Source of the DNA: Spirochaetota bacterium
Lineage (GTDB): Bacteria > Spirochaetota > UBA4802 > UBA5550
Length of the DNA: 64,000 nucleotides
Reading direction: 5' to 3'
NCBI GenBank assembly: GCA_963663865.1
Contig: OY760686.1
Span: 2,509,730 to 2,573,729 of the forward strand
Shown here: positions 12,421-28,545 of the stretch, piece after piece
How positions within the stretch are numbered: position 1 is the stretch's first letter
How the letters are laid out: every line of letters starts with the position of its first letter
The notes under the pieces: generated by a model
What the model was told of the DNA's origin: nothing
The model's database searches: none
Seen by the model: only the letters and a program-made list of their open reading frames with translations
Position numbers and translations under genes: made by a program

Positions 12421-12714
12421 CTCGCGTTTAACTGCACTTCTTCACAGGTTTGCAGCCAGCCGGATTAAATCCGACGGCTATTCAGGTCAGGAATTTTTCG
12501 GCTTGATGTCAAGGGTTTAATAAATCGGCAGACCATTTTTTCAAGAATAATACCCGTGCCTGAGAAATATTATTGACACCACAATGTTTCAGTTGAGAAT
12601 TTCCAGAAGCGGGTATTATGTCTAATTCCAGGCTCCTATAGCACAAGTTTCCTGCACACCGATAGTTCAATTTCCGTTATTAGGCAGAAACCGCACCAGA
12701 TCAGAGGTAAAAGA

Positions 12715-13989: not shown

Positions 13990-14817
13990 ATGTCCAGCGA
14001 TTCACATTACTACAGTTCGTACAAGGAAGACAGAGACCTTGTTCTTGAGTACAACCAGGTCTCGCTTGAAGACGGAGAGCCGGTAAACGTGCTGGGTGTC
14101 AACATTGACAATCTGACAAGGGAACAGGCTGTTGTCAAAGTCATACGCATGATTGAAAACGGGGGAGTAAACCACATCGTTCCGGTAAATCCCTATAAAA
14201 TCGAAAGAATGAAGACCCGTCAGGAGATGAGAAACCTGTTCTCCGGCGCGGACATGATAATTCCCAGCGGAGCTGGCGTGGTATGGGCGGCAAAGAAAAT
14301 CAAAACCCCTCTGAAGCAGAGAATCCCCATACTCAGCTTTATGATGGACATTATCCGTATCGCTGAAATCAAGGGCTTTTCCATCTTCATTGTTGGCGGC
14401 AAACCGGAAACTGCCGAGATGGCCTTCTTCAACATCAGAAAATCGTTTCCGAAAATACGAATCGTAGGCAGGCACGGCGGATATTTCAGCCCTGAACGGG
14501 AAAAGGCGGTCGTGGAAGCTATGAGAAAATCGGAAGCAAATATCGTCTTCGTAGGCATGGGTTTTCCAAAAGAAAACAGATGGATTGAAAAGATAAAGGG
14601 AGAATTTCAGAATACAGTCTTCGTCGGCGTTGGCGGATGTATTGACATTATTTCAGGCGACATCAAGAAAGCGCCCGCCTGTGCGATGGCAACGGGCACA
14701 GACTGGCTTTACAGAACCGCAGTCAGGCCTTGGCGTATCGGGCGTCTTATGCGAATTTTCAAATTCTATGTTCACGCTTTCTTCAAAGGCCTGTTTACGC
14801 GAACTCACGGGAAATAG
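13990..14817 (+). CDS. WecB/TagA/CpsF-family glycosyltransferase (GT26)
   Basis: The 275-aa product has the …IVPVNPYKI…ADMIIPSGAGVVWAAK…IFIVGGKPE…IVFVGMGFPKENRWI… pattern of GT26. It starts 9 nt after the thiC stop behind a GGAGG RBS. Confidence 0.75.
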   Translation: MSSDSHYYSSYKEDRDLVLEYNQVSLEDGEPVNVLGVNIDNLTREQAVVKVIRMIENGGVNHIVPVNPYKIERMKTRQEMRNLFSGADMIIPSGAGVVWAAKKIKTPLKQRIPILSFMMDIIRIAEIKGFSIFIVGGKPETAEMAFFNIRKSFPKIRIVGRHGGYFSPEREKAVVEAMRKSEANIVFVGMGFPKENRWIEKIKGEFQNTVFVGVGGCIDIISGDIKKAPACAMATGTDWLYRTAVRPWRIGRLMRIFKFYVHAFFKGLFTRTHGK

Positions 14818-15064: not shown

Positions 15065-16381
15065 TTATTGGACCAGCTTGACCGCAGCAACTGCCAGGTC
15101 TTCTCTGACCGCCAGTCCCTCCGCGAAATCTTCAGCCGCTTTCAAAAGCGCGCCTGCCCCTTCTTCAACTGACTGAACCTGTTGCGCCAGAGCGCTCAGC
15201 AGGACATCTTTAGACAGCTTTCTTCCTGACCTGTTGCGTATGTTAAACACACCGCCGGTAACCGCCGCCAGACAGTCTCCGGGCTTCATCTTTACGGTTA
15301 TTACACGGCCATATCCCGGCTCTTCGGGTCCGGACTGGAAAACCATCTTGGCCTCATTGCCAATTCTCTTCAGTATTACACATACATTGCCGGCCGTAAC
15401 AAACGATACTGACTGCGTGCCGCCATCAATGAAACCGTAAACCCCTGATAAGGCTGCTGCCCCCGGGAGTTGAATCATTGTTTTTCTGAGAAGCTGAAAA
15501 ATCCTGGAAGGCGCCCCAAGAGGAACTATCGGCAGCGAAGATAATGCTCCGCGTATACTGGATGCGGCCAGGGCCCCGGGAATGCCTTTTCTTGAGACGT
15601 CGCCAATGTAAAAATACGCGACCTCCTCACTGATTTCCATTCCGCCATGCAGTACGCCTCCCAGCTCACGCGCGGGCTTTGAAAGCGTAAACGCGGACAA
15701 TCCGCCCGCACGTACTGATACGCTCCTGCCGAAGACCTCGTTGACAGCAACTGCTCCTTCGACCTCGGCCTTTAAGCGTTCCTCCTCAATCGCTTTCTGA
15801 AAATAGACTGCGTTTTGTACTGCCAGTGCGGCCTGATCCGCGAATATGCTGAACACGGCGCTGTCAGAAGCGGCAAAGCCTTCTCTGTCTGCGGCATTTA
15901 TTGCCTGTATAACACCGAGAAGTTTACCCTTATGCAACAGGGGAGCGCACATAATCGATTTTGTGACAAATCCGGTTGCCCGGTCATAATTTGGATCAAA
16001 TCGGTCATCTGAATAGACATCGTTTACAATGAGGCTTTTCCCGCTCTTCGCGACATGGCCCGCGATGCCCTGCCCCATTCTAACCCGGTACTTTTCAGTC
16101 AACTCCTCACCGGCCCCTCCCAGAGCAACCTTAAAGACAAGATCGTCTGAAGATTCGTCGTAAAGCAGAAGAGTGCTTGCCTCAGCTTTAACGATCTCCT
16201 TAATTATCTCCATGATAATGTTCAGAAGCTTTTTTATATCGAGTGTTGAGTTGATAATCGTGTTTATTTCGACAAGCCTGGCAAGGCTTTCTGTCTGATC
16301 ATTGCCCCAGGTGTTTTCCAAAATCTGTGAAGTATCCATTTCCCCTTCCGGCGCGGCAATCACCCGCCTGCAGAATTTCAT
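15065..16381 (-). CDS. GAF-domain sensor fused to a PP2C/SpoIIE-type serine phosphatase (RsbU-like)
   Basis: The N-terminus is GAF-like (…ASTLLLYDESSDDLVFKVALGG…). The C-terminus is PPM-type (…YFYIGDVSRKGIPGALAAS…GDCLAAVTGGVFN…). Confidence 0.65.
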   Translation of the reverse strand: MKFCRRVIAAPEGEMDTSQILENTWGNDQTESLARLVEINTIINSTLDIKKLLNIIMEIIKEIVKAEASTLLLYDESSDDLVFKVALGGAGEELTEKYRVRMGQGIAGHVAKSGKSLIVNDVYSDDRFDPNYDRATGFVTKSIMCAPLLHKGKLLGVIQAINAADREGFAASDSAVFSIFADQAALAVQNAVYFQKAIEEERLKAEVEGAVAVNEVFGRSVSVRAGGLSAFTLSKPARELGGVLHGGMEISEEVAYFYIGDVSRKGIPGALAASSIRGALSSLPIVPLGAPSRIFQLLRKTMIQLPGAAALSGVYGFIDGGTQSVSFVTAGNVCVILKRIGNEAKMVFQSGPEEPGYGRVITVKMKPGDCLAAVTGGVFNIRNRSGRKLSKDVLLSALAQQVQSVEEGAGALLKAAEDFAEGLAVREDLAVAAVKLVQ

Positions 16382-16588
16382 CTCTCTGTTCCTGACAGCG
16401 ACAGCTGTCCGTCCCCAAATTAGGCCGCCCCCGTACCGGGGGTTGCATCATTTCATCAAAGTATATTAAAACGATAAATCCCCATAGTGAATCAGAAGAG
16501 TCTGAAGCTGTAAAGAAAAAAAAAGAATATTGTAAGCCCGATCAGGCCGCCTTTTTATGTTGACACAGCTGCCGCTGGATTCTTCAAT

Positions 16589-17308
16589 ATGGTCATGGCA
16601 AAGAGAGTTTCAATAATACAGTCAAACTACATTCCCTGGAAGGGTTATTTCGATATTATAAATTCATCCGACATATTCATTATTTACGACGACGCCCAGT
16701 ACACCCGCAGGGACTGGAGAAACCGCAACATCATTAAGACCCCGCGCGGGAGGGAGTGGCTCACTGTTCCGGTTGAGACAAAGGGATTCTACACGGCTCC
16801 GATAAATACGATAAGAGCTGCCGGCAAAGAATGGGCTGAAAAGCACTGGAAAACCATTAAGCGCAACTACTCGAAAACCAGATACTTCTCAAACTACAGC
16901 GGTCTTTTCGAATCCATCTACTCATCACTGGAAGATTATGAATATCTCACCGACATAAATATCAGGCTGATTAAAGCAGTCAGCTCAATCACTGGAATTA
17001 AAACTGAGATTAAGGATTCAAGGGATTTCAACCTTAGCGGCGACAGCAACGGCAGGCTTATCTCTATGTGCCTTGAATCCGGAGCCGACGAGTACATTTC
17101 CGGCCCGTCTGCAGCGGCATATATTGACGAAAACAGATTCCGGGAAGCAGGGATTACGCTGAGGTGGATGGACTACAGCGGGTATCCGGAATATCCGCAG
17201 CTCTATCCTCCATTCGATCACTGCGTTAGTATTCTTGATCTCATGTTCAACACGGGAGATGAGGCTCCCCTCTACATGAAATCCTTCGGGGAAGAGGCTT
17301 CCGCATGA
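16589..17308 (+). CDS. WbqC-like family protein (associated with polysaccharide clusters)
   Basis: The product reads …SIIQSNYIPWKGYFDII…DDAQYTRRDWRNRN…, the characteristic WbqC N-terminus. Confidence 0.7.
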   Translation: MVMAKRVSIIQSNYIPWKGYFDIINSSDIFIIYDDAQYTRRDWRNRNIIKTPRGREWLTVPVETKGFYTAPINTIRAAGKEWAEKHWKTIKRNYSKTRYFSNYSGLFESIYSSLEDYEYLTDINIRLIKAVSSITGIKTEIKDSRDFNLSGDSNGRLISMCLESGADEYISGPSAAAYIDENRFREAGITLRWMDYSGYPEYPQLYPPFDHCVSILDLMFNTGDEAPLYMKSFGEEASA

Positions 17309-18858
17309 AAGTATCCATTGTCACGTCGCTTTACCGTTCTCAGGACTACGTAAATGAGTTTTGCGCCCGGTGCAGAAAGTCCGCAGAAAGAATAGCAGAC
17401 GACTTTGAAATCATCCTTGTAAATGATTGCTCTCCTGACAATTCACTTGAGAAAGCCCTCGCCTGTGCCGAGACCGACAGCCGCATCACCGTCATTGATC
17501 TTGCGAGAAACTTCGGACAGCACAGAGCAATAATGACAGGTATTGCTCACAGCAGCGGCGACTACGTTTTCATTGCAGACTCAGACCTTGAAGAAGACCC
17601 TGCCCTTCTCGAAAGGTTTTACACCGTAATGATCTCAGAAAACGACACGGATGTCGTCTACGGTGTGCAAACAGTAAGGAAGGGAGGCCTGATTGAACGT
17701 CTCAGCGGCAGCATCTTTTACAGGGTTTTCAACTTCCTCTCTGAGGTCAAAATCCCGGCAAATCAGATTACGGCAAGGCTCATGACACGCCGTTACGCCG
17801 ACGCGCTTATTCAGCACAGGGAAAGAGAGCTGTTCATGGCCGGCATCTGGGCGCTGACGGGGTTCAGGCAGGTTGCGGTTCCTGTTCGAAAGAGATCATC
17901 AAGCCCGACTTCATACACACTGAAGAAGAAGATATCCCTTCTTATTAATTCCCTGACATCATTCAGCAGCAGGCCTCTGCTTGCGGCATCCTATATCGGA
18001 TTTGTTATTACAGTTTCCGCCTTCGCCGGCATAATAAAGCTCGTATACGACAGACTGGCGCACGGCACGGCTATCGAGGGATGGACATCGATTTTTGTCT
18101 CCATCTGGTTCGCCTGCGGACTCATAGTTTTCTTTGTCGGGCTGATAGGGCTCTACGTGTCGAGAATGTTTACTGAAACAAAAAAAAGGCCCTACACTGT
18201 CATCAAGCAGATTCACAGCTTCCCCTGCCGTTTCAGCAGGGACAGGATCAAAAACACTGTTTCAGAATACTACAGCAGCCTCGTGAAAACTCACGGCGCC
18301 ACTCCGAAGGGCGCGGACTGGAATTCGAGCGAGTCTCAAACGCTTCGCTTCAGACAGCTTATGAATGCTGTGGAAAACGGCAAGCCGTTCAGCATCAACG
18401 AGTTAGGCTGCGGCTATGGCGCTCTGCCCGCCTGGATGAAGGATAACGGGTTCCGTTTCAGATATACCGGTTACGACATTTCTTCAGAGATGATCAGCGA
18501 GGCCAAAAAACTCCACTCAAAAGGCAGGAACATTTCATTCGTTAAGTCAGACCGCATGAAATCCGCGGACTACACGGTGGCAAGCGGAATATTCAATGTC
18601 CGCCCCGGGATTTCCGAAAGGGAATGGGAGGCCTATGTCCAGGATACCATCAGAATGATGGACAGATCATCGGTCAAGGCATTTGCCTTTAACGCTCTGA
18701 CCTCATATTCCGATTCACACCTCATGAGGGACGACCTCTACTACGCTGACCCTCTGAAGCTATTTGACTTCTGCAAAAGAAATTTTTCAAAAAACGTATC
18801 CCTTCACCACGATTACGGGCTGTACGAATTCACAATTATCGTCAGAAAGGATATATGA
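17305..18858 (+). CDS. Fusion protein: GT2 bactoprenol-type glycosyltransferase (GtrB/ArnC-like, 2 TM helices) plus a C-terminal SAM-dependent methyltransferase
   Basis: The N-terminus is KVSIVTSLYRS…ILVNDCSPDNS…DSDLEE (GT2 DxD). Two TM helices lie around residues 230-290. The C-terminus reads …INELGCGYGALPAW…GYDISSEMI… (methyltransferase motif I). The start overlaps the upstream gene as ATGA. Confidence 0.7.
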   Translation: MKVSIVTSLYRSQDYVNEFCARCRKSAERIADDFEIILVNDCSPDNSLEKALACAETDSRITVIDLARNFGQHRAIMTGIAHSSGDYVFIADSDLEEDPALLERFYTVMISENDTDVVYGVQTVRKGGLIERLSGSIFYRVFNFLSEVKIPANQITARLMTRRYADALIQHRERELFMAGIWALTGFRQVAVPVRKRSSSPTSYTLKKKISLLINSLTSFSSRPLLAASYIGFVITVSAFAGIIKLVYDRLAHGTAIEGWTSIFVSIWFACGLIVFFVGLIGLYVSRMFTETKKRPYTVIKQIHSFPCRFSRDRIKNTVSEYYSSLVKTHGATPKGADWNSSESQTLRFRQLMNAVENGKPFSINELGCGYGALPAWMKDNGFRFRYTGYDISSEMISEAKKLHSKGRNISFVKSDRMKSADYTVASGIFNVRPGISEREWEAYVQDTIRMMDRSSVKAFAFNALTSYSDSHLMRDDLYYADPLKLFDFCKRNFSKNVSLHHDYGLYEFTIIVRKDI

Positions 18859-19535
18859 CACAACAGGAGAGAATTATGAAAAAGCTGATAATATTCGGAA
18901 CAGGCGACATCGCGCAGATAGCCCATCTATACTTTTCTGAAAGCGGAGAATACAGCGTAGAAGCGTTTACTGTTGACAGAGACTTCATTAAGGCAGACAG
19001 CTTCTGCGGACTCCCTGTTCACGCCTTCGAAGATATCCGGAAGGATTTCAGCCCTGATGAATACGAGCTTTTCGTCGCTGTCAGCTACGCGGGCCTCAAC
19101 CGCGTTAGGGCGTCAAAATACGAAGCAGGAAAGGCCATGGGATACCGCTTCGCAAGCTACATCAGCCCGGCCGCCAGCATCGCATCAAACGCCGAAATAG
19201 GAGAAAACTGCTTTATATTCGAAGACAACACGGTTCAACCCTTTGTAAAAATCGGCAATAATGTAACACTGTGGAGCGGCAACCACATAGGCCACCACTC
19301 CACCGTCGGAGACAGCTGCTTTATTACGTCCCATGTGGTTATATCGGGCGGTGTACATGTTGGAGATTTTTCCTTCATCGGAGTAAACGCGACTCTGAGG
19401 GATCACATAAAAATTGGGATGAGCTGCGTAATAGGAGCCGGAGCCATCATTATGAACAATACCGATGACGAAAGTGTCTACGTGCCTGAGAGGACGAAGC
19501 CCCGGAACATGAAGAGCAGCGAACTGCGTCTTTAA
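18855..19535 (+). CDS. NeuD/PglD/VioB-family sugar acyltransferase (left-handed beta-helix)
   Basis: An N-terminal Rossmann-like KKLIIFGTGDIAQ is followed by hexapeptide repeats (…IGNNVTLWSGNHIGHHSTVGDSCFITSHVVISGGVHVGDFSFIGVNA…). Confidence 0.75.
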   Translation: MTQQERIMKKLIIFGTGDIAQIAHLYFSESGEYSVEAFTVDRDFIKADSFCGLPVHAFEDIRKDFSPDEYELFVAVSYAGLNRVRASKYEAGKAMGYRFASYISPAASIASNAEIGENCFIFEDNTVQPFVKIGNNVTLWSGNHIGHHSTVGDSCFITSHVVISGGVHVGDFSFIGVNATLRDHIKIGMSCVIGAGAIIMNNTDDESVYVPERTKPRNMKSSELRL

Positions 19536-19579
19536 CAGAAATTTTTCTTATATAGACCGTCTGAAAAGGGAGCGCCCGA

Positions 19580-20623
19580 TTAAAACAGAAAGAATATACC
19601 TGTACCGGCGCCCGCATATACCGGAAACGATTCTCTTTCTGCGACTAAGCCGCAATAGAGGCTGAAGCGCATACCCACATTGTATGTCAGCATTCTTGAG
19701 GCGCTCAAACCTGCATCGGCCATGAACTCAATGGCAGGGCCGGACTGGTAGACGGTTTCACCCGAAGGATAATGGTAGCTCATGTACACGGCGCCCGCCC
19801 TTACAACCGGCTGAAGAGACCACTGACCAAATTCTGCTGCAGCATAGCACACCCTCAGCAGCAGGGGCACCTGCAGCATGTACCCCCCCAGAGTGCTTGA
19901 AAACTCGTATCGAAGCAGCCCGGCATCAACGCCCGCGGAAAGGCCCGGAACAAAAATGTCCCTAAACGACAGGGCAGCTCCGCCCCCAAACGCGTATTCC
20001 GCCCGATCGGCAAACTCTCCTGCCGGTAGCTGAAACGAGCCGTACAAATCAAAGCTTATATTGTCAACAGGCTCATCAACTGCCGTCTGATAGGACTCCT
20101 CGCGTTTCCGGGGATATCCTTTTTCGAGATACCAGCGTATATCCTCAACAATAAGGGCGCTCATCTTCTTCAGGTAGCGCCTGAGACTTCCCTGCCTGTC
20201 AATGCGCCTGACATAAGCGTAAAGAATGGAACCGTCTTCCACTCTGATGACGCGAATATTCAGAATTGCCTTGCCGAGCAGAGTTGAAATGCTGCCCGTC
20301 ACGAAATAATCGGCTGTGAGCATTTTTCCGGCCGAGACAATGGCTCCGCTGCCGGAGAGGTTCTCCTTCAGTGACTTCTCTTTAAGAATAAGGTCAACTC
20401 TCTCCCTTTCAAGTATGCGGAAACTGCGCGAGTTGAAAAAATTAAGCTCAATCTCATCCCTGAGAGTCTTCTCGAACTTTCTTGACTCCTCATCGAATTC
20501 AAAACCCGCAATGGCCACGGCCGGCCTGCTTTCAGATGCGGCAAAAGCTCCAGACACAACCGGAGCAAACGCACACACGGCAAGCATGACCGCACAAACA
20601 ATAATCCGAATTACTCTCTTCAA
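19580..20623 (-). CDS. Outer-membrane protein: N-terminal CsgG-like periplasmic domain plus a C-terminal beta-barrel-like region
   Basis: It has a signal peptide. A CsgG-family-like pattern follows (AVAIAGFEF…ERERVDLILKEKSLKENLSG…ADYFVTGSIS). The C-terminus has alternating hydrophobic residues and ends in …GIFFLF. Confidence 0.45.
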   Translation of the reverse strand: MKRVIRIIVCAVMLAVCAFAPVVSGAFAASESRPAVAIAGFEFDEESRKFEKTLRDEIELNFFNSRSFRILERERVDLILKEKSLKENLSGSGAIVSAGKMLTADYFVTGSISTLLGKAILNIRVIRVEDGSILYAYVRRIDRQGSLRRYLKKMSALIVEDIRWYLEKGYPRKREESYQTAVDEPVDNISFDLYGSFQLPAGEFADRAEYAFGGGAALSFRDIFVPGLSAGVDAGLLRYEFSSTLGGYMLQVPLLLRVCYAAAEFGQWSLQPVVRAGAVYMSYHYPSGETVYQSGPAIEFMADAGLSASRMLTYNVGMRFSLYCGLVAERESFPVYAGAGTGIFFLF

Positions 20624-21330
20624 TTTAACTTCGCTTTTATCTCACGGAAATATTCTCTGCAGCGCTCTTCGAAGCCTTCATCTTTCTTTAATGACTTTCT
20701 TACAATCCCTACAACCTCGGAGGTATCACCCCTGACTATTCTTGATGTCAACAGAACCGCTCCGTCTTCAGACTCCGCGCTTCCAAGCACGATGTACTCC
20801 GCGTTACTGTGCATTCCCGCAGACTGAATTACGCGCATCTGACTCCCGCTCCCCAGGACACGGGCGGCAGCTCTGTTCAATGCACTGAGTTCGGCGCTTC
20901 CAATCGTCTCTGAAGTAAAGCCCTGGAAACCTATAAGCTTCATTTTTATCCGGGGGGGGATATTGACCTGTTCAGTTTCTGTTTCCACCGGCTCCGGAAT
21001 TGATATTTCCGAAACAGCCTGCTTCTCTTTTTTTGAAGCAACATAGTACTTCACGCTGACAGCGGAAGCTGTAGTAACCGCTACAGCCGTTGATACCGCT
21101 AAAACCTTATTCACTGCCATAAAAAGCTTTATGTTCTTCATGAGATACATAAGAGCGGCAAATATAGCTGCCCATGCCGATATGAGGCCAAGCTCTCTGA
21201 GCAGCCTTTTCAGAACCCTTTCCTGCGACTTAATCGCGTGGCGTCTTGCCTCCCTGGAAGAGCTTTCGACAAGCTCAGCTCTGTCGAGAAGGCTTTCAAA
21301 AAGGAGGATATCTTTACGTCCAGACTTCAT
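20620..21330 (-). CDS. Putative membrane-spanning anti-sigma factor, cotranscribed with the ECF sigma factor
   Basis: The gene lies between the ECF sigma factor and the outer-membrane-protein gene, with 4-bp overlaps on both sides. It has two hydrophobic helices. A C8 tract on the coding strand sits in frame (residues IPPR). Confidence 0.4.
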   Translation of the reverse strand: MKSGRKDILLFESLLDRAELVESSSREARRHAIKSQERVLKRLLRELGLISAWAAIFAALMYLMKNIKLFMAVNKVLAVSTAVAVTTASAVSVKYYVASKKEKQAVSEISIPEPVETETEQVNIPPRIKMKLIGFQGFTSETIGSAELSALNRAAARVLGSGSQMRVIQSAGMHSNAEYIVLGSAESEDGAVLLTSRIVRGDTSEVVGIVRKSLKKDEGFEERCREYFREIKAKLN

Positions 21331-22049
21331 ATCAGATCCTCCACGCCCGTGATTCCTTTATTTCTTAAATTATGCATCATCTTCTTTATTACCCTTTTAT
21401 ACCTGTAACCTGTCTGTCTTGAGCTGAGATTAAGCTGTAAAGCGGCCTCCCTGCGGGAATAGCGTAATATAGCAATAAGCTCAAAGACGGTCCTGTCAAT
21501 ATCATCCTCGTAGTTCTCAGCGTTATCAATCTCCTGCTGAAGCACTATCCTCAGATCGTTTGAAACAGACTCCCTCAAATCTGAAAGATCATCTTTTCCG
21601 CTGTCGAGTTCAACCTGGCTCTCGCCTCTGCTCCTGTAAAACTGAGATATCCTGTTTCTTGCCACAGTCATCAGCCAGTTTTTTGGCTCAATTACTGTCT
21701 CAATATTCCTGTATAAATCAATGAATATTTCGTGGCAGATATCCTCGGCGTCTTCCACCTTCCCCAGAGACTTATAGACTCTGTTAAAGACAAGGGAATA
21801 GTTGTTTCTATAGCACTCAATAAACTCGGTCTTTAAGGCCTTATCGTCTTCCATTTCCACCATACACTGTATAAGATGATTTTTACACAAACTGTTGACA
21901 TATTTTTTTTTATTATCGGGGTTTTTTTGTGAAATTTGCAGCGATGAAGCCCAATTACACCTTAACTTCCCCGCCTGCGGCGGGGAGGAGTTGATGTTTG
22001 TGTCCTCGCAGTTTTTATCACTATTCAAATTTCCACTTGACATCTTCAT
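21327..22049 (-). CDS. ECF-subfamily RNA polymerase sigma-70 factor (probable true start at 21863, giving 178 aa)
   Basis: Region 2 reads …EDAEDICHEIFIDLYRN…WLMTVARNRISQFYRSR…. Region 4 HTH reads …LRYSRREAALQLNLSSRQTGYRYKRVIKKM…. The 62 aa upstream are low-complexity and likely not translated. Confidence 0.75.
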   Translation of the reverse strand: MKMSSGNLNSDKNCEDTNINSSPPQAGKLRCNWASSLQISQKNPDNKKKYVNSLCKNHLIQCMVEMEDDKALKTEFIECYRNNYSLVFNRVYKSLGKVEDAEDICHEIFIDLYRNIETVIEPKNWLMTVARNRISQFYRSRGESQVELDSGKDDLSDLRESVSNDLRIVLQQEIDNAENYEDDIDRTVFELIAILRYSRREAALQLNLSSRQTGYRYKRVIKKMMHNLRNKGITGVEDLI

Positions 22050-22222
22050 TTTTTATTAAAAAACTTTCCACGAGTTAGCGGCGGAAATCAAGCCGGCTTG
22101 CGCGTCAGCATGAAAATTGCATGGTTTAATCAAAAGCTTTGATTTTCCTTATACTCTCATTTATATATATTTATTTTACTATATGATTTTAACTCATATT
22201 TTTTCATAATAAATATGGCTGG

Positions 22223-24790: not shown

Positions 24791-25690
24791 ATGAAATGGA
24801 ATAAAATTGGACACATCTTCACTCCTGACGGCTCCATCCCCCTCATGAAAACACATGCCTCACTGCCGGTAGCGGAAAACGTAGACGGCCCTCTATTCAG
24901 AATTTACTTCAGCTCAAGAGACGACCTCAACCGTTCGCATACATTCAGCCTTATGTTCGATATAGAAAGCTTAAAAATTCTGTCGGTTGACATTGAACCG
25001 GTACTTTCTCCGGGGGAACCCGGTTTTTTCGATGACTCGGGGGCCATGGCCTCGTGCATTCTCGAAAACGAAGGCACAAAATACCTCTACTATATAGGCT
25101 GGAATCTCGGAGTCAGCGTACCATTCAGAAATGCTATTGGCCTTGCGCTGAGACGCCCGGGGGAAAACATCTTTACAAAATACTCTGAAGGCCCCATTGT
25201 TGACAGAAGTCCGGTTGACCCATGTTTTACCGCCAGCTCATGCGTCCTTTACGTGGGCGGGCTTTTCAGAATGTGGTATCTTTCGTGTGTATCATGGCTA
25301 CCCCGCCACAGATACAATATCAAATACGCTGAATCTGCCGATGGCATCAACTGGCGCCGTAAAGGCATAACAGCGATTGACTTTAAAGACGCTGACGAAT
25401 ATGCCATCTCGGTGCCGAGGGTCCTCGTAGAACAGGGCGCTTACGGGATGTGGTTTTCACACCGCGGCACTCCCGACGCTCCGGCGTATAGAATAGGTTA
25501 CGCGGAATCAGCTGACGGAATCACGTGGAAAAGAAACGATCAAAAGGCTGGGCTTACAACTTCCGAGTCTGGATGGGACTCGGATATGGTCTGTTATCCG
25601 TTTGTTTTTACCCACAACGGGACAAAATACATGCTTTACAACGGAAACGGTTACGGAGTTACCGGTTTCGGTTTAGCTGCAGAGGAATAA
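24791..25690 (+). CDS. Beta-propeller glycosidase/phosphorylase-like protein (GH43/GH32/GH130-type fold), associated with the glycan cluster
   Basis: Beta-rich W/Y/G-rich repeats are present (…YAESADGINWRRKG…YAESADGITWKRND…). The length is about 300 aa. Family assignment is uncertain. Confidence 0.4.
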   Translation: MKWNKIGHIFTPDGSIPLMKTHASLPVAENVDGPLFRIYFSSRDDLNRSHTFSLMFDIESLKILSVDIEPVLSPGEPGFFDDSGAMASCILENEGTKYLYYIGWNLGVSVPFRNAIGLALRRPGENIFTKYSEGPIVDRSPVDPCFTASSCVLYVGGLFRMWYLSCVSWLPRHRYNIKYAESADGINWRRKGITAIDFKDADEYAISVPRVLVEQGAYGMWFSHRGTPDAPAYRIGYAESADGITWKRNDQKAGLTTSESGWDSDMVCYPFVFTHNGTKYMLYNGNGYGVTGFGLAAEE

Positions 25691-25695
25691 TCACA

Positions 25696-26550
25696 ATGAC
25701 CAGACAACTCCCGAGAAAGCTGTTCATCTGCCCCGAATGCAGATCTTCAAGACTCCGATTCCGCAAGGACCGGATTACCTGCATGGGCTGTTCTTCTCAG
25801 TTTTCCGTAGATAACGGCCGTTACATATTCCTGAAAAATCCTCCTTCCGCCCTTGATTTACTTGACCGTATTAAATCAATATTCAAATCGTTTCCCCGGC
25901 TCTATTCGTTTATTGTCAGAACTTTCAGCCCTGTTTATTCACCGGACTTTACATCGAGATTTATCAGCGACTATATTCAGGACAAATCGCTCGTTTCAAT
26001 CAACCTCGGAAGCGGAGCCGTCAGTCTTTCAGATAATATGATCGACATAGACTGTGTTCCGTATAAAAACGTCAGCATCGTGTGCAACATTACGTCGCTT
26101 CCTGTTGCCGACTCAAGCGTGGACCGCATTCTCAACTCTGCGGTGCTTGAACATGTCCCCTCGCCCGAGGCAGCGGTCAATGAAATGTTGAGGATTATGA
26201 AACCCGGAGCCGTAATATGCTGTTACATGCCCTTCATTGTAGGCTATCATGCCAGTCCTCATGACTACTCAAGGCTGACAATCGAAGGCATGCGGCATCT
26301 GTTCAAAGATTTCGATATTGTATCACTCGATGTATGCGGCGGACCGACAAGCGGTCTGCTCTGGATTCTCCAGGAATGGCTTGCTCTTATTCTCTCCTTC
26401 GGTTCAAAGAATCTCCACCTTGTCCTTTACATCCTGATAAGCATGCTGACATGGCCAGTTAAGTATATTGATGTTATACTCAGAAAACACCCTGCATCAA
26501 GGAACATAGCAAGCGGTTTTCTTATAACAGCGAGGAAGCCGTCCCAATGA
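25696..26550 (+). CDS. SAM-dependent methyltransferase (type 11) with an N-terminal CxxC…CxxC zinc ribbon
   Basis: The true ATG is at 25696, directly after the upstream stop and a GAGGA RBS. The zinc ribbon is ICPECRSS…CMGCSS. The methyltransferase core reads …SINLGSGAVS…LRIMKPGAV…. Confidence 0.6.
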   Translation: MTRQLPRKLFICPECRSSRLRFRKDRITCMGCSSQFSVDNGRYIFLKNPPSALDLLDRIKSIFKSFPRLYSFIVRTFSPVYSPDFTSRFISDYIQDKSLVSINLGSGAVSLSDNMIDIDCVPYKNVSIVCNITSLPVADSSVDRILNSAVLEHVPSPEAAVNEMLRIMKPGAVICCYMPFIVGYHASPHDYSRLTIEGMRHLFKDFDIVSLDVCGGPTSGLLWILQEWLALILSFGSKNLHLVLYILISMLTWPVKYIDVILRKHPASRNIASGFLITARKPSQ

Positions 26551-27407
26551 TTCTCTGTCCCGAATGCGGCCTTCCGCTTAATAAAAAGTCATGCAGATGC
26601 GGCTTCAAGCTCGCAAAACAAAACGGCGTTTACCGCCTGGCAGCCGGCATTCCACACATCAAACCGGGGTACTCGGAGGAAGGGCATATCGTACTCAACT
26701 CGTGCGAAGAAAAACACTTCTGGTTTGTCATAAGACGCAGACTTATTTCAGAAGCTGTAAAGCGCTGCCTTAAGCCAGGCTCGTCTGTGTTCGACGCGGG
26801 CTGCGGAACCGGCCGGACAGCAATGGAACTCAGCAAAGCCGGATTTAAGGTAAGCGCCGGAGACATCTTTGAGCCCGGACTCAGGCTTTCCGCCTCCAGG
26901 ATACAGGGCCCGGTCTATCAAACCGACATATCAGATCTCCCATTCAGGGAGCATTTCGATTCTGTATGTGCCTTTGACGTTATTGAGCACTTTAAGGACG
27001 ATATCGCCCTCATGAAAACTTTTCATTCGGCGCTTAAGCCCGGGGGAATCATCTTTCTGACAGTTCCCGCCTACCAGTTCCTCTGGAGCCGAGGCGACAC
27101 TGAAGGCGGGCACGCAAGAAGATATAGCAGAAAAACAGTGAGAAACCTTCTCCGCAATGCCGGCTTTGAGCCGCTTGAGATACGCTATTTCTATCTATTT
27201 ATTCTTCCCCTTCTCTTTCTTCGGAAACTTCTGCTCATGTTCAGTCCGAGTGGGCATAAATCCACCGAGACCGGTACAGCCATAAATGAGGCAGTCAATG
27301 CCATCCTCATGTCAGCCGCACGTTTTGAGCACCGGATATTCCGCCGTAGCGGCCCTCCTGCTGGAGGCAGCATCCTGGCAGCAGGCAAAAAAATCGAGGA
27401 GCAGTAA
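26547..27407 (+). CDS. SAM-dependent methyltransferase with an N-terminal zinc ribbon (paralogous architecture to the upstream gene)
   Basis: The product begins MILCPECGLP…CRCG, then VFDAGCGTGRTAMELSKAGFKV…LKPGGIIFLTVP. The start overlaps the upstream gene as ATGA. Confidence 0.7.
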   Translation: MILCPECGLPLNKKSCRCGFKLAKQNGVYRLAAGIPHIKPGYSEEGHIVLNSCEEKHFWFVIRRRLISEAVKRCLKPGSSVFDAGCGTGRTAMELSKAGFKVSAGDIFEPGLRLSASRIQGPVYQTDISDLPFREHFDSVCAFDVIEHFKDDIALMKTFHSALKPGGIIFLTVPAYQFLWSRGDTEGGHARRYSRKTVRNLLRNAGFEPLEIRYFYLFILPLLFLRKLLLMFSPSGHKSTETGTAINEAVNAILMSAARFEHRIFRRSGPPAGGSILAAGKKIEEQ

Positions 27408-27411
27408 GCTA

Positions 27412-28545
27412 ATGCAGGTTCCCTTTAACATACCATGTCTGACCGGACTCGAAGAAAAATATCTGCTTGAGCTGGTCCGGTCAGGACGCTTTTCCGGAGA
27501 CAACCACTTCACGGCTGAATGCCGGGCACGCCTTAAAGAGCTCTATCCTGATTCAATGCCTCTGCTGACGACTTCCGGGACATCCGCCCTCGAAATGGCA
27601 TGCATCCTCACGGAACTCGGGCCCGGGGATGAGGTTATTCTCCCATCCTACACCTTTTCATCTACAGCAACTTGCGTAACAATGAGAGGCGCGGTGCCTG
27701 TTTTCGTCGATATCCGCCCCGATACGATGAATATAAATGAGCAACTGATTGAAGACGCGGTTACGGATAAAACACGCGCCATAATTCCAGTCCACTATGC
27801 CGGCATGCCCTGCGAGATGGACACGATATTGGATATCGCCGCAAAACACGGGCTGACTGTTATTGAGGACGCGGCACAGGCTGCTCTTTCGTTATATAGA
27901 GGAACCCCGGCCGGAGCTATCGGCTCCTTCGGCGCGCTCAGTTTCCATGAGACAAAGAACCTCCAGTGCGGAGAGGGGGGCGCTCTTCTTGTCAACAGAG
28001 AGAAATACTTCGGCAGGGCGGAAATCATCAGAGAAAAAGGTACCGACAGGTCAAAGTACTGGAGAGGAGAGATAGACAAGTACTCGTGGGTTGACAACGG
28101 ATCCTCTTTCCTTCCTTCCGAACTATGCTCAGCCTTTCTTCTCCCGCAGCTTCAGAGCGCTGAAGAAATCACGTCGCAGAGAAAAAACTCCTGGCGTCTT
28201 TACATAGATGCCTCGCAGGAACTCGTTGAAGCGGGACACATTGAGATTCAGATTATTCCCGAAGGCTGCGAAACTAACGGCCATATTTTCTACATTAAAA
28301 CAAGTAATATTCAAGTAAGGGAAAAGCTCATGTCGTTTCTCGAAACAAGAGGAATAGCGTCCGTTTTTCACTATGTACCGCTGCACAGCTCAAAGGCCGG
28401 AAAACGCTTCGGACGTTTCCACGGAGACGATACTTATACAACAGCCGAAAGCATGAGACTTCTGAGACTCCCCATGTTCCACGGGATCACCTCCGATCAG
28501 ATTCAGTACACAGTTGAATCAATTGAGGATTTCTACAGGGCATAA
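27412..28545 (+). CDS. DegT/DnrJ/EryC1/StrS-family PLP-dependent sugar aminotransferase (WecE/PseC-like)
   Basis: The product begins MQVPFNIPCLTGLEEKYLLELVRSGRFSGDNHFTAECRARLKEL… and continues …LTTSGTSALEMA…DEVILPSYTFSSTA…. It is about 377 aa from the ATG at 27412. Confidence 0.85.
   Translation: MQVPFNIPCLTGLEEKYLLELVRSGRFSGDNHFTAECRARLKELYPDSMPLLTTSGTSALEMACILTELGPGDEVILPSYTFSSTATCVTMRGAVPVFVDIRPDTMNINEQLIEDAVTDKTRAIIPVHYAGMPCEMDTILDIAAKHGLTVIEDAAQAALSLYRGTPAGAIGSFGALSFHETKNLQCGEGGALLVNREKYFGRAEIIREKGTDRSKYWRGEIDKYSWVDNGSSFLPSELCSAFLLPQLQSAEEITSQRKNSWRLYIDASQELVEAGHIEIQIIPEGCETNGHIFYIKTSNIQVREKLMSFLETRGIASVFHYVPLHSSKAGKRFGRFHGDDTYTTAESMRLLRLPMFHGITSDQIQYTVESIEDFYRA

What the first reader, a model, noticed from the sequence alone, without database searches (positions are those of the whole stretch)
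17305..18858. Unusual fusion of a bactoprenol-type GT2 glycosyltransferase with a SAM methyltransferase, in a WbqC/NeuD operon
The N-terminal roughly 300 aa look like GtrB/ArnC (GT2 DxD motif plus two C-terminal TM helices), which makes polyprenyl-phosphate sugars. The C-terminal roughly 210 aa have methyltransferase motif I (LGCGYGAL) and post-I acidic residues. The gene overlaps a WbqC-like gene upstream and a NeuD/PglD-type acyltransferase downstream, each by ATGA. This suggests a lipid-linked, methylated and possibly N-acylated sugar is made as a unit. I am not aware of this architecture being characterised.
Basis: partly seen in the sequence, partly recalled or inferred. Interest (0 to 1): 0.68.

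Follow-up and report, generated by a model that had tools for sequence, protein, structure and literature searches.

The report
Sugar-to-lipid transferase fused to methyltransferase
The gene is real and encodes a membrane enzyme that loads a sugar onto the bacterial lipid carrier, joined to a methyl-adding enzyme. The two halves are separate neighbouring genes in about 95% of related bacteria sampled, so this is a rare fusion inside a common, unstudied cell-surface sugar pathway.

Summary
ORF 17305-18858 (+) encodes 517 aa.

- **N-terminal half (aa 1-304):** aligns end to end with the solved GtrB and ArnC structures, with the DxD motif at D92/D94 and two transmembrane helices.
- **C-terminal half (aa ~313-517):** a complete class I SAM methyltransferase (AF2 pLDDT 91.5).
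- **Not an artefact:** three independent contigs and a 97%-identical relative keep the reading frame. About 17 other protein clusters share the architecture.
- **Not a new combination:** the C-terminal half is 52% identical over its full length to a standalone 210-aa methyltransferase. That enzyme is encoded directly after the GT2 gene in Pseudomonas and many other phyla.
- **Rare and recurrent:** only 4 of 80 genome loci are fused, and the fusion seems to have arisen several times. One relative carries a non-homologous FkbM methyltransferase fused in the same position.
- **Conserved module:** WbqC, GT2, MT, NeuD-type acetyltransferase, GH130-like protein and a WecE aminotransferase. The window holds the second half at 24791-28545.

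I predict an Arn-like route to undecaprenyl-phosphate-linked, N-acylated, methylated 4-amino-4,6-dideoxyhexose. The methyltransferase substrate, the final acceptor and the WbqC chemistry are inferred. The fusion itself is of modest interest. The uncharacterised module is of somewhat more.

The parts
16589..17308 (+). WbqC-family gene (239 aa; possibly starts at 16595). It is the first gene of the operon and its stop overlaps the start of the fusion gene (ATGA).
   Evidence: Pfam PF08889 at 258 bits. The AF2 model has pLDDT 92.5. The best PDB fold match is BshC 4wbd (E 8e-4, TMq 0.46), followed by other nucleotide-binding alpha/beta folds such as cytidylyltransferases and TyrRS. It is found next to the GT2 gene in 82 of the 90 sequences compared.
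17305..18858 (+). The fusion gene: 517 aa, a polyprenyl-phosphate glycosyltransferase joined to a class I SAM methyltransferase.
17305..17919 (+). Cytoplasmic GT-A catalytic domain (aa 1 to about 205), with DxD at nt 17578-17586 (D92, D94).
   Evidence: Pfam GT2 E 8e-25. Alignment to GtrB and ArnC. D41, D45, D92 and D94 are invariant among the 17 aligned fused sequences.
17920..18216 (+). Juxtamembrane and membrane region plus C-terminal tail (aa about 206-304). It has two transmembrane helices (about aa 227-246 and 260-288; nt about 17983-18042 and 18082-18168), then the ETKKRPYTVIK tail that aligns with the GtrB C-terminus.
   Evidence: Hydropathy. Alignment to GtrB chain positions 231-327.
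18217..18240 (+). Short linker (about aa 305-312, SFPCRFSR). It is the most variable part among fused proteins, about 12 to 60 residues in the alignment.
   Evidence: Alignment A1, columns 309-362.
18241..18855 (+). Class I SAM methyltransferase domain (aa about 313-517). Motif I is at nt 18403-18426. D391 lies at the end of strand beta-2.
   Evidence: Pfam. It is 52% and 43% identical over its full length to standalone methyltransferases of L005 and L008. It keeps all 35 invariant columns of the alignment of 54 sequences. AF2 pLDDT 91.5 with a seven-stranded sheet. Foldseek finds 1102 PDB matches at E <= 0.001; all 50 listed are methyltransferases.
18855..19535 (+). NeuD/PglB/VioB-family hexapeptide sugar N-acetyltransferase (226 aa from 18855; more likely 219 aa from the ATG at 18876).
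   Evidence: TIGR03570 at 181.8 bits against a cut-off of 160.8. Shine-Dalgarno GGAGAG at 18866-18871. Gene calls.
24791..25690 (+). GH130-like, presumably beta-propeller protein (299 aa). In other genomes it is the conserved gene that follows the acetyltransferase.
   Evidence: 44% identical over its full length to the 301-aa gene after the acetyltransferase in P. taiwanensis. Weak GH130 and mannobiose-phosphorylase hits. Present in 55 of the 90 sequences compared.
25696..26550 (+). Second methyltransferase (Methyltransf_11, with a CxxC zinc-ribbon-like N-terminus). The start is uncertain (25696 or about 25783).
   Evidence: Rare elsewhere: 3 of the 90 sequences compared.
26547..27407 (+). 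Third methyltransferase (Methyltransf_23, 286 aa, CxxC N-terminus). It usually sits next to the aminotransferase in related loci.
   Evidence: Pfam E 8e-23. Present in 32 of the 90 sequences compared. Same arrangement in L003.
27412..28545 (+). WecE-type dTDP-4-amino-4,6-dideoxygalactose transaminase (377 aa).
   Evidence: NCBIfam equivalog NF008687 at 526 bits (cut-off 375) and TIGR02379 at 506 bits (cut-off 435). A homologue is present in 69 of the 90 sequences compared. PGAP names the N. galegae homologue rffA, next to rfbA.

Best explanation
**What it is.** The gene encodes one polypeptide with two enzymes.
- Residues 1-304 are a GtrB/ArnC-type polyprenyl-phosphate glycosyltransferase. It has a cytoplasmic GT-A domain with a DxD metal site, juxtamembrane helices and two transmembrane helices, and its C-terminus returns to the cytoplasm.
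- About ten residues later a complete class I SAM-dependent methyltransferase begins. It is therefore held at the cytoplasmic face of the membrane beside the transferase.

**Where it came from.** The protein is the fused form of two adjacent genes of a widespread conserved module. Those genes overlap in the loci I inspected (L005, L006, L008, L093). The module is WbqC, GT2, MT, NeuD-type acetyltransferase, GH130-like protein, an optional further MT and a WecE aminotransferase. Related loci add an ArnE/F-like or GtrA flippase and a large membrane transferase.

**Proposed pathway (inferred, by analogy with the Arn pathway):**
1. WecE aminates dTDP-4-keto-6-deoxyglucose to dTDP-4-amino-4,6-dideoxyhexose.
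2. The amine is acylated by the acetyltransferase and/or by WbqC acting as an amino-acid ligase.
3. The GT2 half moves the sugar onto undecaprenyl phosphate.
4. The tethered MT half methylates the sugar. This happens most likely on the lipid-linked product at the membrane, less likely on the nucleotide sugar just before transfer.
5. The lipid-linked sugar is flipped and then transferred to an unknown envelope acceptor.

**Shown:** domain identities, intact motifs, the origin of the fusion, and conservation of the module. **Inferred:** the identity of the sugar, the order of steps, the MT substrate and the acceptor.
For: - **GT2 half:** it aligns over its full length with solved GtrB and ArnC (E 1e-43 and 6e-34), with DxD in register and two transmembrane segments.
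- **MT half:** Pfam scores are above the gathering cut-offs. The AF2 model has pLDDT 91.5 and a canonical seven-stranded fold, with D391 at the end of beta-2. All 50 listed Foldseek matches are class I methyltransferases, TM 0.52-0.71.
- **Origin of the fusion:** the MT half is 52% identical over its full length to the standalone MT encoded right after the GT2 gene in P. taiwanensis. Achromobacter, Thermoanaerobaculia and Peteryoungia show the same gene order.
- **Frequency:** only 4 of 80 genome loci are fused. Only about 4 fused representatives appear among the top 150 in the 50%-identity library.
- **Recurrence:** several fused proteins have GT2 domains closer to an unfused protein than to any other fused one. 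For example, P0007 is 72.8% identical to its nearest unfused protein and 66.9% to its nearest fused one.
- **Convergence:** P0270 has the same GT2 family fused to a non-homologous FkbM methyltransferase, in a locus that also carries WbqC, MT and the acetyltransferase.
- **Selection:** the 97% relative shows 27 synonymous and 16 non-synonymous changes and no indel.
- **Pathway context:** a WecE equivalog in the window; rfbA and rffA next to the pair in N. galegae; an ArnF/ArnE-like 125-aa protein in L006; YfhO downstream in L003; co-occurrence counts.
- **Geometry:** in GtrB, TM2 and the C-terminal element pack against the neighbouring protomer (PMC12698845). An MT attached about 10 residues later must sit next to a GT-A domain.
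Against: - No biochemical data exist for any member, fused or not.
- The MT substrate cannot be read from sequence. The structural neighbours include O-, N- and C-methyltransferases.
- The module works with a free MT in about 95% of the genome loci sampled (76 of 80). Tethering is therefore not required, and the fusion could be neutral.
- No flippase and no recognisable GT-C transferase lie in the window.
- No ArnD-like deacylase is seen among the genes I scanned.
- By the phmmer alignment, three of the GtrB residues that bind undecaprenyl phosphate are not conserved: R122 aligns to Q122, K132 to E131 and K180 to A179.
- The scores are far below the ArnC and PgfS equivalog cut-offs (130 and 150 bits against 529 and 500). 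The donor sugar therefore differs from those enzymes and is only inferred from the neighbouring genes.
- The NJ tree has no support values.
Confidence: 0.65

Rival explanations
1. The methyltransferase acts upstream, on the soluble dTDP-sugar. It could N-methylate the 4-amino or aminoacyl nitrogen, or O-methylate the sugar, before the GT2 half transfers it. In this reading the fusion only fixes the stoichiometry or hands the substrate over locally.
For: - In most genomes the MT is a free soluble protein of about 208 aa with no membrane segment.
- N-methyltransferases (XrdM, ToxA, phosphoethanolamine and PE N-MTs, NmbA) are among the fold neighbours.
- WbqC, an aminotransferase and methyltransferases also occur together in a Dickeya flagellin island. 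No GT2 is named among those seven genes (PMC9650423).
Against: - To my knowledge, sugar O-methylation usually follows glycosyl transfer.
- Two unrelated methyltransferase families have been fused to the membrane enzyme rather than to the soluble enzymes of the module.
- In 45 of the 90 sequences compared the MT gene lies directly downstream of the GT2 gene.
Confidence: 0.3
2. The fusion is a selectively neutral accident. The two genes overlap or sit one stop codon apart, so a small indel joins them. Both halves then work exactly as the separate proteins do, and the fusion says nothing about mechanism.
For: - The overlaps between the unfused genes are 4 nt (L008), 17 nt (L005), 20 nt (L093) and 35 nt (L006).
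- In N. galegae the two genes are in the same frame, 93 nt apart.
- Fused forms are rare and scattered, with linkers of very different lengths.
Against: - A non-homologous FkbM methyltransferase is fused at the same position in another lineage.
- The fusion persists across lineages that have diverged to 37-57% identity.
- This rival is compatible with either MT substrate, so it is not fully exclusive of the main explanation.
Confidence: 0.25
3. The long ORF is an artefact: a sequencing or assembly frameshift has joined two genes.
For: The two genes overlap in different frames in L005, L006 and L008, so a single-base error could create such an ORF.
Against: - The identical ORF occurs in three contigs from separate assemblies.
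- A 97% relative has 45 nucleotide differences and no indel.
- Sixteen further fused proteins from the protein search and four fused genome loci, including the isolate Notoacmeibacter marinus, show the same architecture.
Confidence: 0.01
4. The C-terminal domain is a degenerate, non-catalytic methyltransferase fold that serves as a regulatory or oligomerisation module.
For: Pfam models match only the N-terminal half of the fold (aa 366-431).
Against: - The domain keeps all 35 invariant columns shared with 53 standalone homologues. These include GCGYG, D391 (D87 of the domain) and the C-terminal HxY..YE block.
- The predicted fold is complete and confident.
- Non-synonymous changes against the 97% relative are few (5 in the MT half).
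Confidence: 0.03

Closest known systems
ArnC and the Arn (PmrHFIJKLM) pathway for lipid A aminoarabinose
   Same: - It is a GT2 polyprenyl-phosphate glycosyltransferase with two C-terminal transmembrane helices. It aligns over aa 2-303 with solved ArnC (E 6e-34).
- The pathway logic matches: a DegT-family aminotransferase, an N-acyl transferase, transfer to undecaprenyl phosphate, then an ArnE/F-like flippase and a large membrane transferase in related loci.
- Like ArnC, it lacks an Asp at the position of GtrB D157 (T156 here, Met in ArnC).
   Different: - It scores 130 bits against the 529-bit equivalog cut-off, so it is not an ArnC orthologue.
- The predicted sugar is dTDP-derived 4-amino-4,6-dideoxyhexose (WecE), not UDP-Ara4FN.
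- Acyl groups come from a NeuD-type acetyltransferase and WbqC rather than the ArnA formyltransferase.
- No ArnD-like deacylase was seen.
- Up to three methyltransferases are present, one of them fused. The acceptor is unknown.
GtrB (Synechocystis sll0501 and phage GtrB), the undecaprenyl-phosphate glucosyltransferase
   Same: It is the best solved relative (E 1e-43, aa 2-302). The DxD motif, the juxtamembrane region, both transmembrane helices and the C-terminal tail all align.
   Different: - GtrB D157, one of the candidate catalytic bases, is T156 here. PMC12698845 notes that D157 is not conserved among such enzymes.
- GtrB ends after the C-terminal tail. Here a 205-aa methyltransferase follows.
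- The donor sugar is different.
WsaE of Geobacillus stearothermophilus (S-layer glycan)
   Same: It is a characterised single polypeptide that combines glycosyltransferase domains with a methyltransferase domain that O-methylates the sugar being assembled (PMC2943079).
   Different: WsaE is soluble, its methyltransferase is N-terminal, and it has two rhamnosyltransferase domains that extend a lipid-pyrophosphate-linked polymer. It is not a polyprenyl-phosphate monosaccharide synthase. I did not test sequence homology here.
ECA Fuc4NAc branch of Enterobacteria (WecE/WecD)
   Same: The window's aminotransferase passes the WecE equivalog cut-offs, and an N-acetyltransferase follows in the module.
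   Different: - The acetyltransferase is a left-handed beta-helix NeuD/VioB type. WecD, to my knowledge, is a GNAT.
- The sugar is predicted to go to undecaprenyl phosphate through a GT2 enzyme. In ECA, to my knowledge, WecF adds it to a lipid-PP-linked disaccharide.
BshC (bacillithiol cysteine-adding enzyme), as an analogue for the neighbouring WbqC
   Same: It is the only PDB fold match to the WbqC model below E 0.001 (4wbd, E 8e-4). To my knowledge BshC adds an amino acid to a sugar amine. This agrees with the curated Shewanella annotation of wbqC as a putative glycine transferase (PMC7253198).
   Different: TMq is only 0.46. BshC is 540 aa with extra domains. There is no detectable sequence similarity. 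WbqC activity has never been shown (PMC5532660).

Membership tests
GtrB/ArnC-type polyprenyl-phosphate glycosyltransferases (GT2) | GT-A domain with a DxD metal-binding motif | tested here: met
   Pfam PF00535 at 88 bits against a cut-off of 23.3. D92 and D94 align with GtrB D94 and D96 and are invariant in the 17 aligned fused sequences.
GtrB/ArnC-type polyprenyl-phosphate glycosyltransferases (GT2) | Juxtamembrane region, two C-terminal transmembrane helices and a cytoplasmic C-terminal tail, aligning over the full length with solved members | tested here: met
   aa 2-302/303 align to 5ekp, 9hwj and 9bhc. Hydropathy peaks are centred at aa 236 and 274.
GtrB/ArnC-type polyprenyl-phosphate glycosyltransferases (GT2) | Basic residues that hold the undecaprenyl-phosphate head group (GtrB R122, R125, K132, K180, R197) | tested here: inconclusive
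   By the phmmer alignment, R125 is kept and R195/K196 lie near R197. R122 aligns to Q122, K132 to E131 and K180 to A179 (residues listed in PMC12698845). The alignment could be off by a few positions.
GtrB/ArnC-type polyprenyl-phosphate glycosyltransferases (GT2) | Transfer of a sugar from a nucleotide sugar to undecaprenyl phosphate | not testable with these tools
   This needs an enzyme assay.
ArnC orthologue (NF007986) or PgfS orthologue (NF047588) | Score above NCBIfam's equivalog cut-off | tested here: not met
   130.4 bits against 529 for ArnC and 149.8 bits against 500 for PgfS. It belongs to the same superfamily but is orthologous to neither.
Class I SAM-dependent methyltransferases | Seven-stranded Rossmann-like fold | tested here: met
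   AF2 pLDDT 91.5, with strands at E58-63, 81-87, 106-110, 117-122, 152-162, 194-197 and 204-210. Foldseek probability is 1.00 to DhpI, ChlM, XrdM and ToxA.
Class I SAM-dependent methyltransferases | Motif I (GxGxG) and an acidic residue at the end of beta-2 | tested here: met
   E366-LGCGYG-A373, and D391 at the end of strand 81-87 of the domain.
Class I SAM-dependent methyltransferases | Pfam gathering score | tested here: met
   Methyltransf_25 at 32.7 bits against 27, and Methyltransf_11 at 27.3 against 21.2.
Class I SAM-dependent methyltransferases | SAM binding and methyl transfer; identity of the atom methylated | not testable with these tools
   The fold neighbours include O-, N- and C-methyltransferases.
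Arn-like lipid-linked amino-sugar modification pathway | DegT-family sugar aminotransferase encoded with the GT2 | tested here: met
   A WecE equivalog lies at 27412-28545. A homologue is present in 69 of the 90 sequences compared.
Arn-like lipid-linked amino-sugar modification pathway | Small SMR-type (ArnE/F) or GtrA flippase | tested here: inconclusive
   None was found among the window genes I scanned. One is present in related loci: an ArnF-like protein at E 1e-12 in L006, a small EamA-type protein in 17 of the 90 sequences compared, and GtrA in 22 of them.
Arn-like lipid-linked amino-sugar modification pathway | GT-C type transferase that moves the sugar to its final acceptor | tested here: inconclusive
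   YfhO lies downstream in L003, and unassigned membrane proteins of 528-571 aa are present in L005 and L006. In the window the only candidate is an unassigned 703-aa polytopic protein at 32886-34997. It has no homologue in the other loci.
Arn-like lipid-linked amino-sugar modification pathway | Deacylase (ArnD-like) that unmasks the amine after transfer | tested here: not met
   No polysaccharide-deacetylase family hit was found among the window ORFs I scanned between 10358 and 31463. I did not search for one in the related loci.
NeuD/PglB/VioB sugar N-acetyltransferases (downstream gene) | TIGR03570 cut-off | tested here: met
   181.8 bits against 160.8.
WbqC family (upstream gene) | PF08889 gathering score | tested here: met
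   258.2 bits against 21.3. The family has no established function (PMC5532660).

The most novel reading that the evidence does not exclude
The fusion marks a widespread, unnamed, Arn-like envelope-modification system found in Pseudomonas, Xanthomonas, Legionella, Vibrio, Rhizobiaceae, Acidobacteriota, Chloroflexota, cyanobacteria and others.

In this reading:
- A 4-amino-4,6-dideoxyhexose is aminoacylated by WbqC, a BshC-like ligase of a new kind.
- The sugar is then acetylated and loaded on undecaprenyl phosphate.
- It is methylated while lipid-linked, by a methyltransferase that docks on, or here is fused to, the membrane transferase.
- It is then delivered to an unknown periplasmic acceptor.

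I know of no described bacterial example of methylation of an undecaprenyl-phosphate monosaccharide.
Probability: 0.3. Interest if true: 0.6.

Novelty: new variant of a known kind. Interest (0 to 1): 0.4.

Why it matters
GtrB/ArnC-type enzymes supply the lipid-linked sugars that bacteria use to decorate lipid A, O-antigen, teichoic acids and proteins outside the cytoplasm. These decorations affect antibiotic resistance, phage resistance and immune recognition.

The fusion works as a Rosetta-stone link. It suggests that the small, unnamed methyltransferase found next to thousands of these GT2 genes works together with the membrane transferase. It also gives a single protein in which that coupling can be tested.

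The broader result is that a seven-gene module for an N-acylated, methylated 4-amino-4,6-dideoxyhexose is common across phyla. It carries only generic names in NCBI annotation, and I found no experimental work on it. Its acceptor and phenotype are open questions.

The fusion alone is a modest finding, because joining adjacent genes is common and the chemistry is predictable.

Tried and rejected
- **Frameshift or assembly artefact:** rejected.
- **Promoters and terminators, 16300-19700:** counts are no higher than in shuffles, so they say nothing about operon limits.
- **Rfam scan of the whole window:** no hit.
- **Identifying the organism:** failed.
  - The only hints are 47.6% GC, FadL- and OmpA-like outer membrane proteins, and a TP_0789-like gene in the relative's locus.
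- **The 703-aa polytopic protein (32886-34997) as the missing GT-C transferase:** it has no similarity to the large membrane proteins of L003, L005 or L006 and no homologue in any fetched locus. The link is unsupported.
- **Literature searches:** searches on WbqC, GtrB with Fuc4N, and polyprenyl glycosyltransferases with a methyltransferase domain found no characterisation. The Pasteurella glycine transferase BcbH adds glycine at C6 of a uronic acid. I judged it not relevant.
- **Sequence search of WbqC against the PDB:** nothing significant.
- **GtrB D157 aligning to T156 as a sign of inactivity:** rejected. ArnC also lacks the Asp, and PMC12698845 states that the residue is not conserved.


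Full report
**1. The observation**

The window has a single ORF at 17305..18858 on the + strand, 517 aa long and starting with ATG.
- **GT2 half.** Pfam places a GT2 domain at aa 4-135 (E 8e-25). NCBIfam models for PgfS and ArnC align over aa 1-303, but far below their equivalog cut-offs.
- **Solved relatives.** Against solved structures, aa 2-302 match GtrB (sll0501, 5ekp; E 1e-43) and aa 2-303 match ArnC (9hwj, 9bhc, 8vxh; E about 1e-33). These matches cover almost the full length of those proteins.
- **Residue-level alignment.** D92-S-D94 lies on GtrB's DxD motif (D94/D96). The juxtamembrane region, both transmembrane helices and the C-terminal tail are also aligned. Hydropathy gives two segments centred at aa 236 and 274.
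- **Methyltransferase half.** Class I methyltransferase models match aa 366-431.
- **Upstream gene.** It is WbqC (258 bits), and its stop overlaps the fusion gene's start (ATGA).
- **Downstream gene.** It is a NeuD/PglB/VioB-family acetyltransferase (181.8 bits against a cut-off of 160.8). An ATGA overlap exists there too. The in-frame ATG at 18876 has a GGAGAG Shine-Dalgarno sequence 4 nt upstream, and two of the three gene calls for this gene use it. It is the more likely start.

**2. The fusion is real**
- The identical 517-aa protein is encoded on three contigs from separate assemblies.
- A second genome, 97.1% identical over this gene, keeps the 1554-nt frame. It differs at 45 nucleotides, with no indel, 27 synonymous and 16 non-synonymous codon changes, and none in the linker.
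- Sixteen further proteins, 37-57% identical, have the same two-domain layout and align across both halves. Their linkers vary in length.
- No alternative start codon lies near the junction, so the methyltransferase can only be made as part of the fusion.

**3. What the fusion is made of**

Neighbourhoods of unfused relatives show the same gene order: WbqC, GT2 (about 310 aa), a separate methyltransferase of 205-210 aa, the hexapeptide acetyltransferase, then a protein of about 300-326 aa. This holds in Pseudomonas taiwanensis, Achromobacter anxifer and a Thermoanaerobaculia genome.

The GT2 and MT genes overlap there by 4 to 35 nt. The window's C-terminal 213 aa are 52% identical over their full length to the Pseudomonas standalone enzyme and 43% identical to the Thermoanaerobaculia one.

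At least 7,931 clusters of this small methyltransferase exist. The named ones carry only generic methyltransferase labels. The fusion therefore joins two neighbouring genes of a common operon.

**4. How rare the fusion is, and how often it arose**
- A scan of one genome per species returned 80 loci. Reading the ORF from each match start shows only 4 fused: a Synechococcus MAG, Notoacmeibacter marinus, a Rhizobiaceae MAG and Marinicaulis.
- In the library clustered at 50% identity, about 4 of the 150 best representatives are fused, out of 1,576 relatives at E <= 1e-30.
- In a neighbour-joining tree of the GT2 domains, fused proteins are scattered among unfused ones.
- Several fused proteins are closer to an unfused protein than to any other fused one. 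P0006 is 72.8% against 65.2% identical, P0007 is 72.8% against 66.9%, and P0008 is 74.1% against 69.5%. This points to repeated fusion, or possibly fission. The tree has no support values.
- In Neorhizobium galegae the two genes are in the same frame, 93 nt apart.
- One relative (P0270, 560 aa) has the same GT2 family fused to a non-homologous FkbM-family methyltransferase. Its locus also carries WbqC, the small MT and the acetyltransferase. Convergent fusion of two unrelated methyltransferases to the membrane enzyme is the best argument that methylation is coupled to this step.

**5. The wider module**

I ran tblastn with the window's proteins against 90 sequences: the 89 related loci fetched by then, a few of them duplicate copies of the same place, plus the window itself.

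| Gene | Present in (of 90) |
|---|---|
| WbqC | 82 |
| WecE-like aminotransferase | 69 |
| Acetyltransferase | 64 |
| Small MT | 63 |
| GH130-like protein | 55 |
| Second MT | 32 |
| RmlB-like dehydratase | 23 |
| GtrA | 22 |
| Small EamA-type protein | 17 |
| RmlA | 12 |

- The small EamA-type protein of L006 matches ArnF (E 1e-12) and ArnE.
- L003 has a YfhO membrane transferase directly downstream.
- The window carries the second half of the module at 24791-28545:
  - the GH130-like protein, 44% identical to the Pseudomonas one;
  - two methyltransferases, each with a CxxC N-terminus in its sequence;
  - an aminotransferase that passes the WecE equivalog cut-offs, 526 bits against 375.
- A 5-kb block separates the two halves. 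It encodes a CsgG-like protein, a membrane protein, an ECF sigma factor and a BNR/cadherin protein. The 97% relative has the same layout.
- PGAP names the N. galegae neighbours rfbA and rffA. Every core gene has only a generic name there and in Peteryoungia.

**6. The two structure models**
- **Methyltransferase domain.** The model is confident (pLDDT 91.5, pTM 0.89). It has the canonical seven-stranded sheet, and D391 closes beta-2. The best PDB neighbours are DhpI, ChlM, XrdM and ToxA, among other small-molecule methyltransferases, at TM 0.6-0.7 and 10-17% identity. This confirms the fold but does not give the substrate.
- **WbqC.** The model is also confident (pLDDT 92.5). Its only PDB match below E 0.001 is BshC. 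Cytidylyltransferases and TyrRS follow. To my knowledge BshC adds cysteine to a sugar amine. The curated Shewanella annotation calls wbqC a putative glycine transferase, beside a dTDP-Qui4N gene (PMC7253198). WbqC as an amino-acid:amino-sugar ligase is therefore a reasonable but weak inference. The family is described as uncharacterised (PMC5532660).

**7. How it most likely works**

Shown: both catalytic domains are intact. The topology places the methyltransferase in the cytoplasm about 10 residues after the C-terminal tail. In GtrB that tail packs against the neighbouring protomer of the tetramer (PMC12698845).

Inferred:
1. WecE makes dTDP-4-amino-4,6-dideoxyhexose.
2. The amine is acylated by the acetyltransferase and/or WbqC.
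3. The GT2 half transfers the sugar to undecaprenyl phosphate.
4. The tethered methyltransferase modifies it. I favour the lipid-linked product (about 0.35 absolute). The alternative is the nucleotide sugar just before transfer (about 0.3).
5. A flippase and a GT-C enzyme, both encoded elsewhere in this genome, deliver it to an unknown acceptor.

**8. Comparison with known systems**
- **ArnC and GtrB.** The GT2 half belongs to their superfamily but is an orthologue of neither ArnC nor PgfS (130 and 150 bits against 529 and 500).
- **Arn pathway.** The pathway logic is the same, with a different sugar, different acyl donors, added methylation and no visible deacylase.
- **WsaE.** This is a characterised glycosyltransferase-methyltransferase fusion. 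It is soluble, has the domains in a different order and works on a polymer (PMC2943079).
- **Literature.** I found no paper on this fusion or on the unfused module.

**9. Verdict**

Novelty is limited: this is a rare, recurrent fusion of two neighbouring genes within a predictable type of pathway. The more useful result is that the surrounding module is widespread and unstudied, and that the fusions tie the small methyltransferase to the membrane step. Interest 0.4; new variant of a known kind.

Noticed in passing
window 24791-28545: The second half of the same sugar module lies 5 kb downstream of the flagged operon. It holds a GH130-like protein, two methyltransferases with CxxC N-termini, and a WecE-equivalog aminotransferase. 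With the fused domain, the system has up to three methyltransferases, which suggests a multiply methylated sugar.
   Followed up: partly
window 19580-24742: A block splits the module. It encodes a CsgG-like lipoprotein, a 236-aa membrane protein and an ECF sigma factor on the minus strand, then an 839-aa BNR/cadherin-like repeat protein. The 97% relative (L090) has the same layout. No other related locus has it.
   Followed up: no
window 32886-34997 (-): A 703-aa protein with about nine or more transmembrane segments in its first 360 residues and a large soluble C-terminal part. It has a GDGDTWWH motif in the first loop and no Pfam family. The architecture looks like a GT-C glycosyltransferase, so it may be the missing transferase. 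It has no homologue in any related locus.
   Followed up: partly
L091 777-2459 (protein P0270): A relative of the same GT2 is fused to an FkbM-family (PF05050) methyltransferase in place of the class I domain seen here. The locus also has WbqC, the small MT and the acetyltransferase on the other strand. A 243-aa gene with no recorded Pfam hit precedes the fusion gene, with a 4-nt overlap.
   Followed up: partly
window 16589-17308 (WbqC): The confident AF2 model of this protein of unknown function has the bacillithiol cysteine-adding enzyme BshC as its only significant PDB match. Class I tRNA-synthetase and cytidylyltransferase folds come next. This hints at an ATP-dependent amino-acid:amino-sugar ligase.
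   Followed up: partly
window 13990-14817: A WecG/TagA/CpsF-family glycosyltransferase (TarA-like, E 4e-51) lies 1.8 kb upstream of the operon, next to thiC. Together with the WecE equivalog it recalls two steps of enterobacterial common antigen synthesis. I did not test any link.
   Followed up: no
window 12421-12714: No TPP riboswitch, or any other Rfam family, reaches the gathering score upstream of thiC or anywhere else in the 64-kb window.
   Followed up: no
L092 9034-10659 (Neorhizobium galegae pNgVX): The GT2 and the small MT are annotated as separate genes in the same reading frame, 93 nt apart. A tblastn match runs through the gap in one piece. This may be an intermediate state between split and fused forms. 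rfbA and rffA follow directly.
   Followed up: partly
window 50070-51770: A 566-aa protein has an MptE-like domain (E 3e-43). To my knowledge this domain occurs in motility-accessory (Maf) flagellin-glycosylation proteins. It sits next to an HDOD-domain protein.
   Followed up: no
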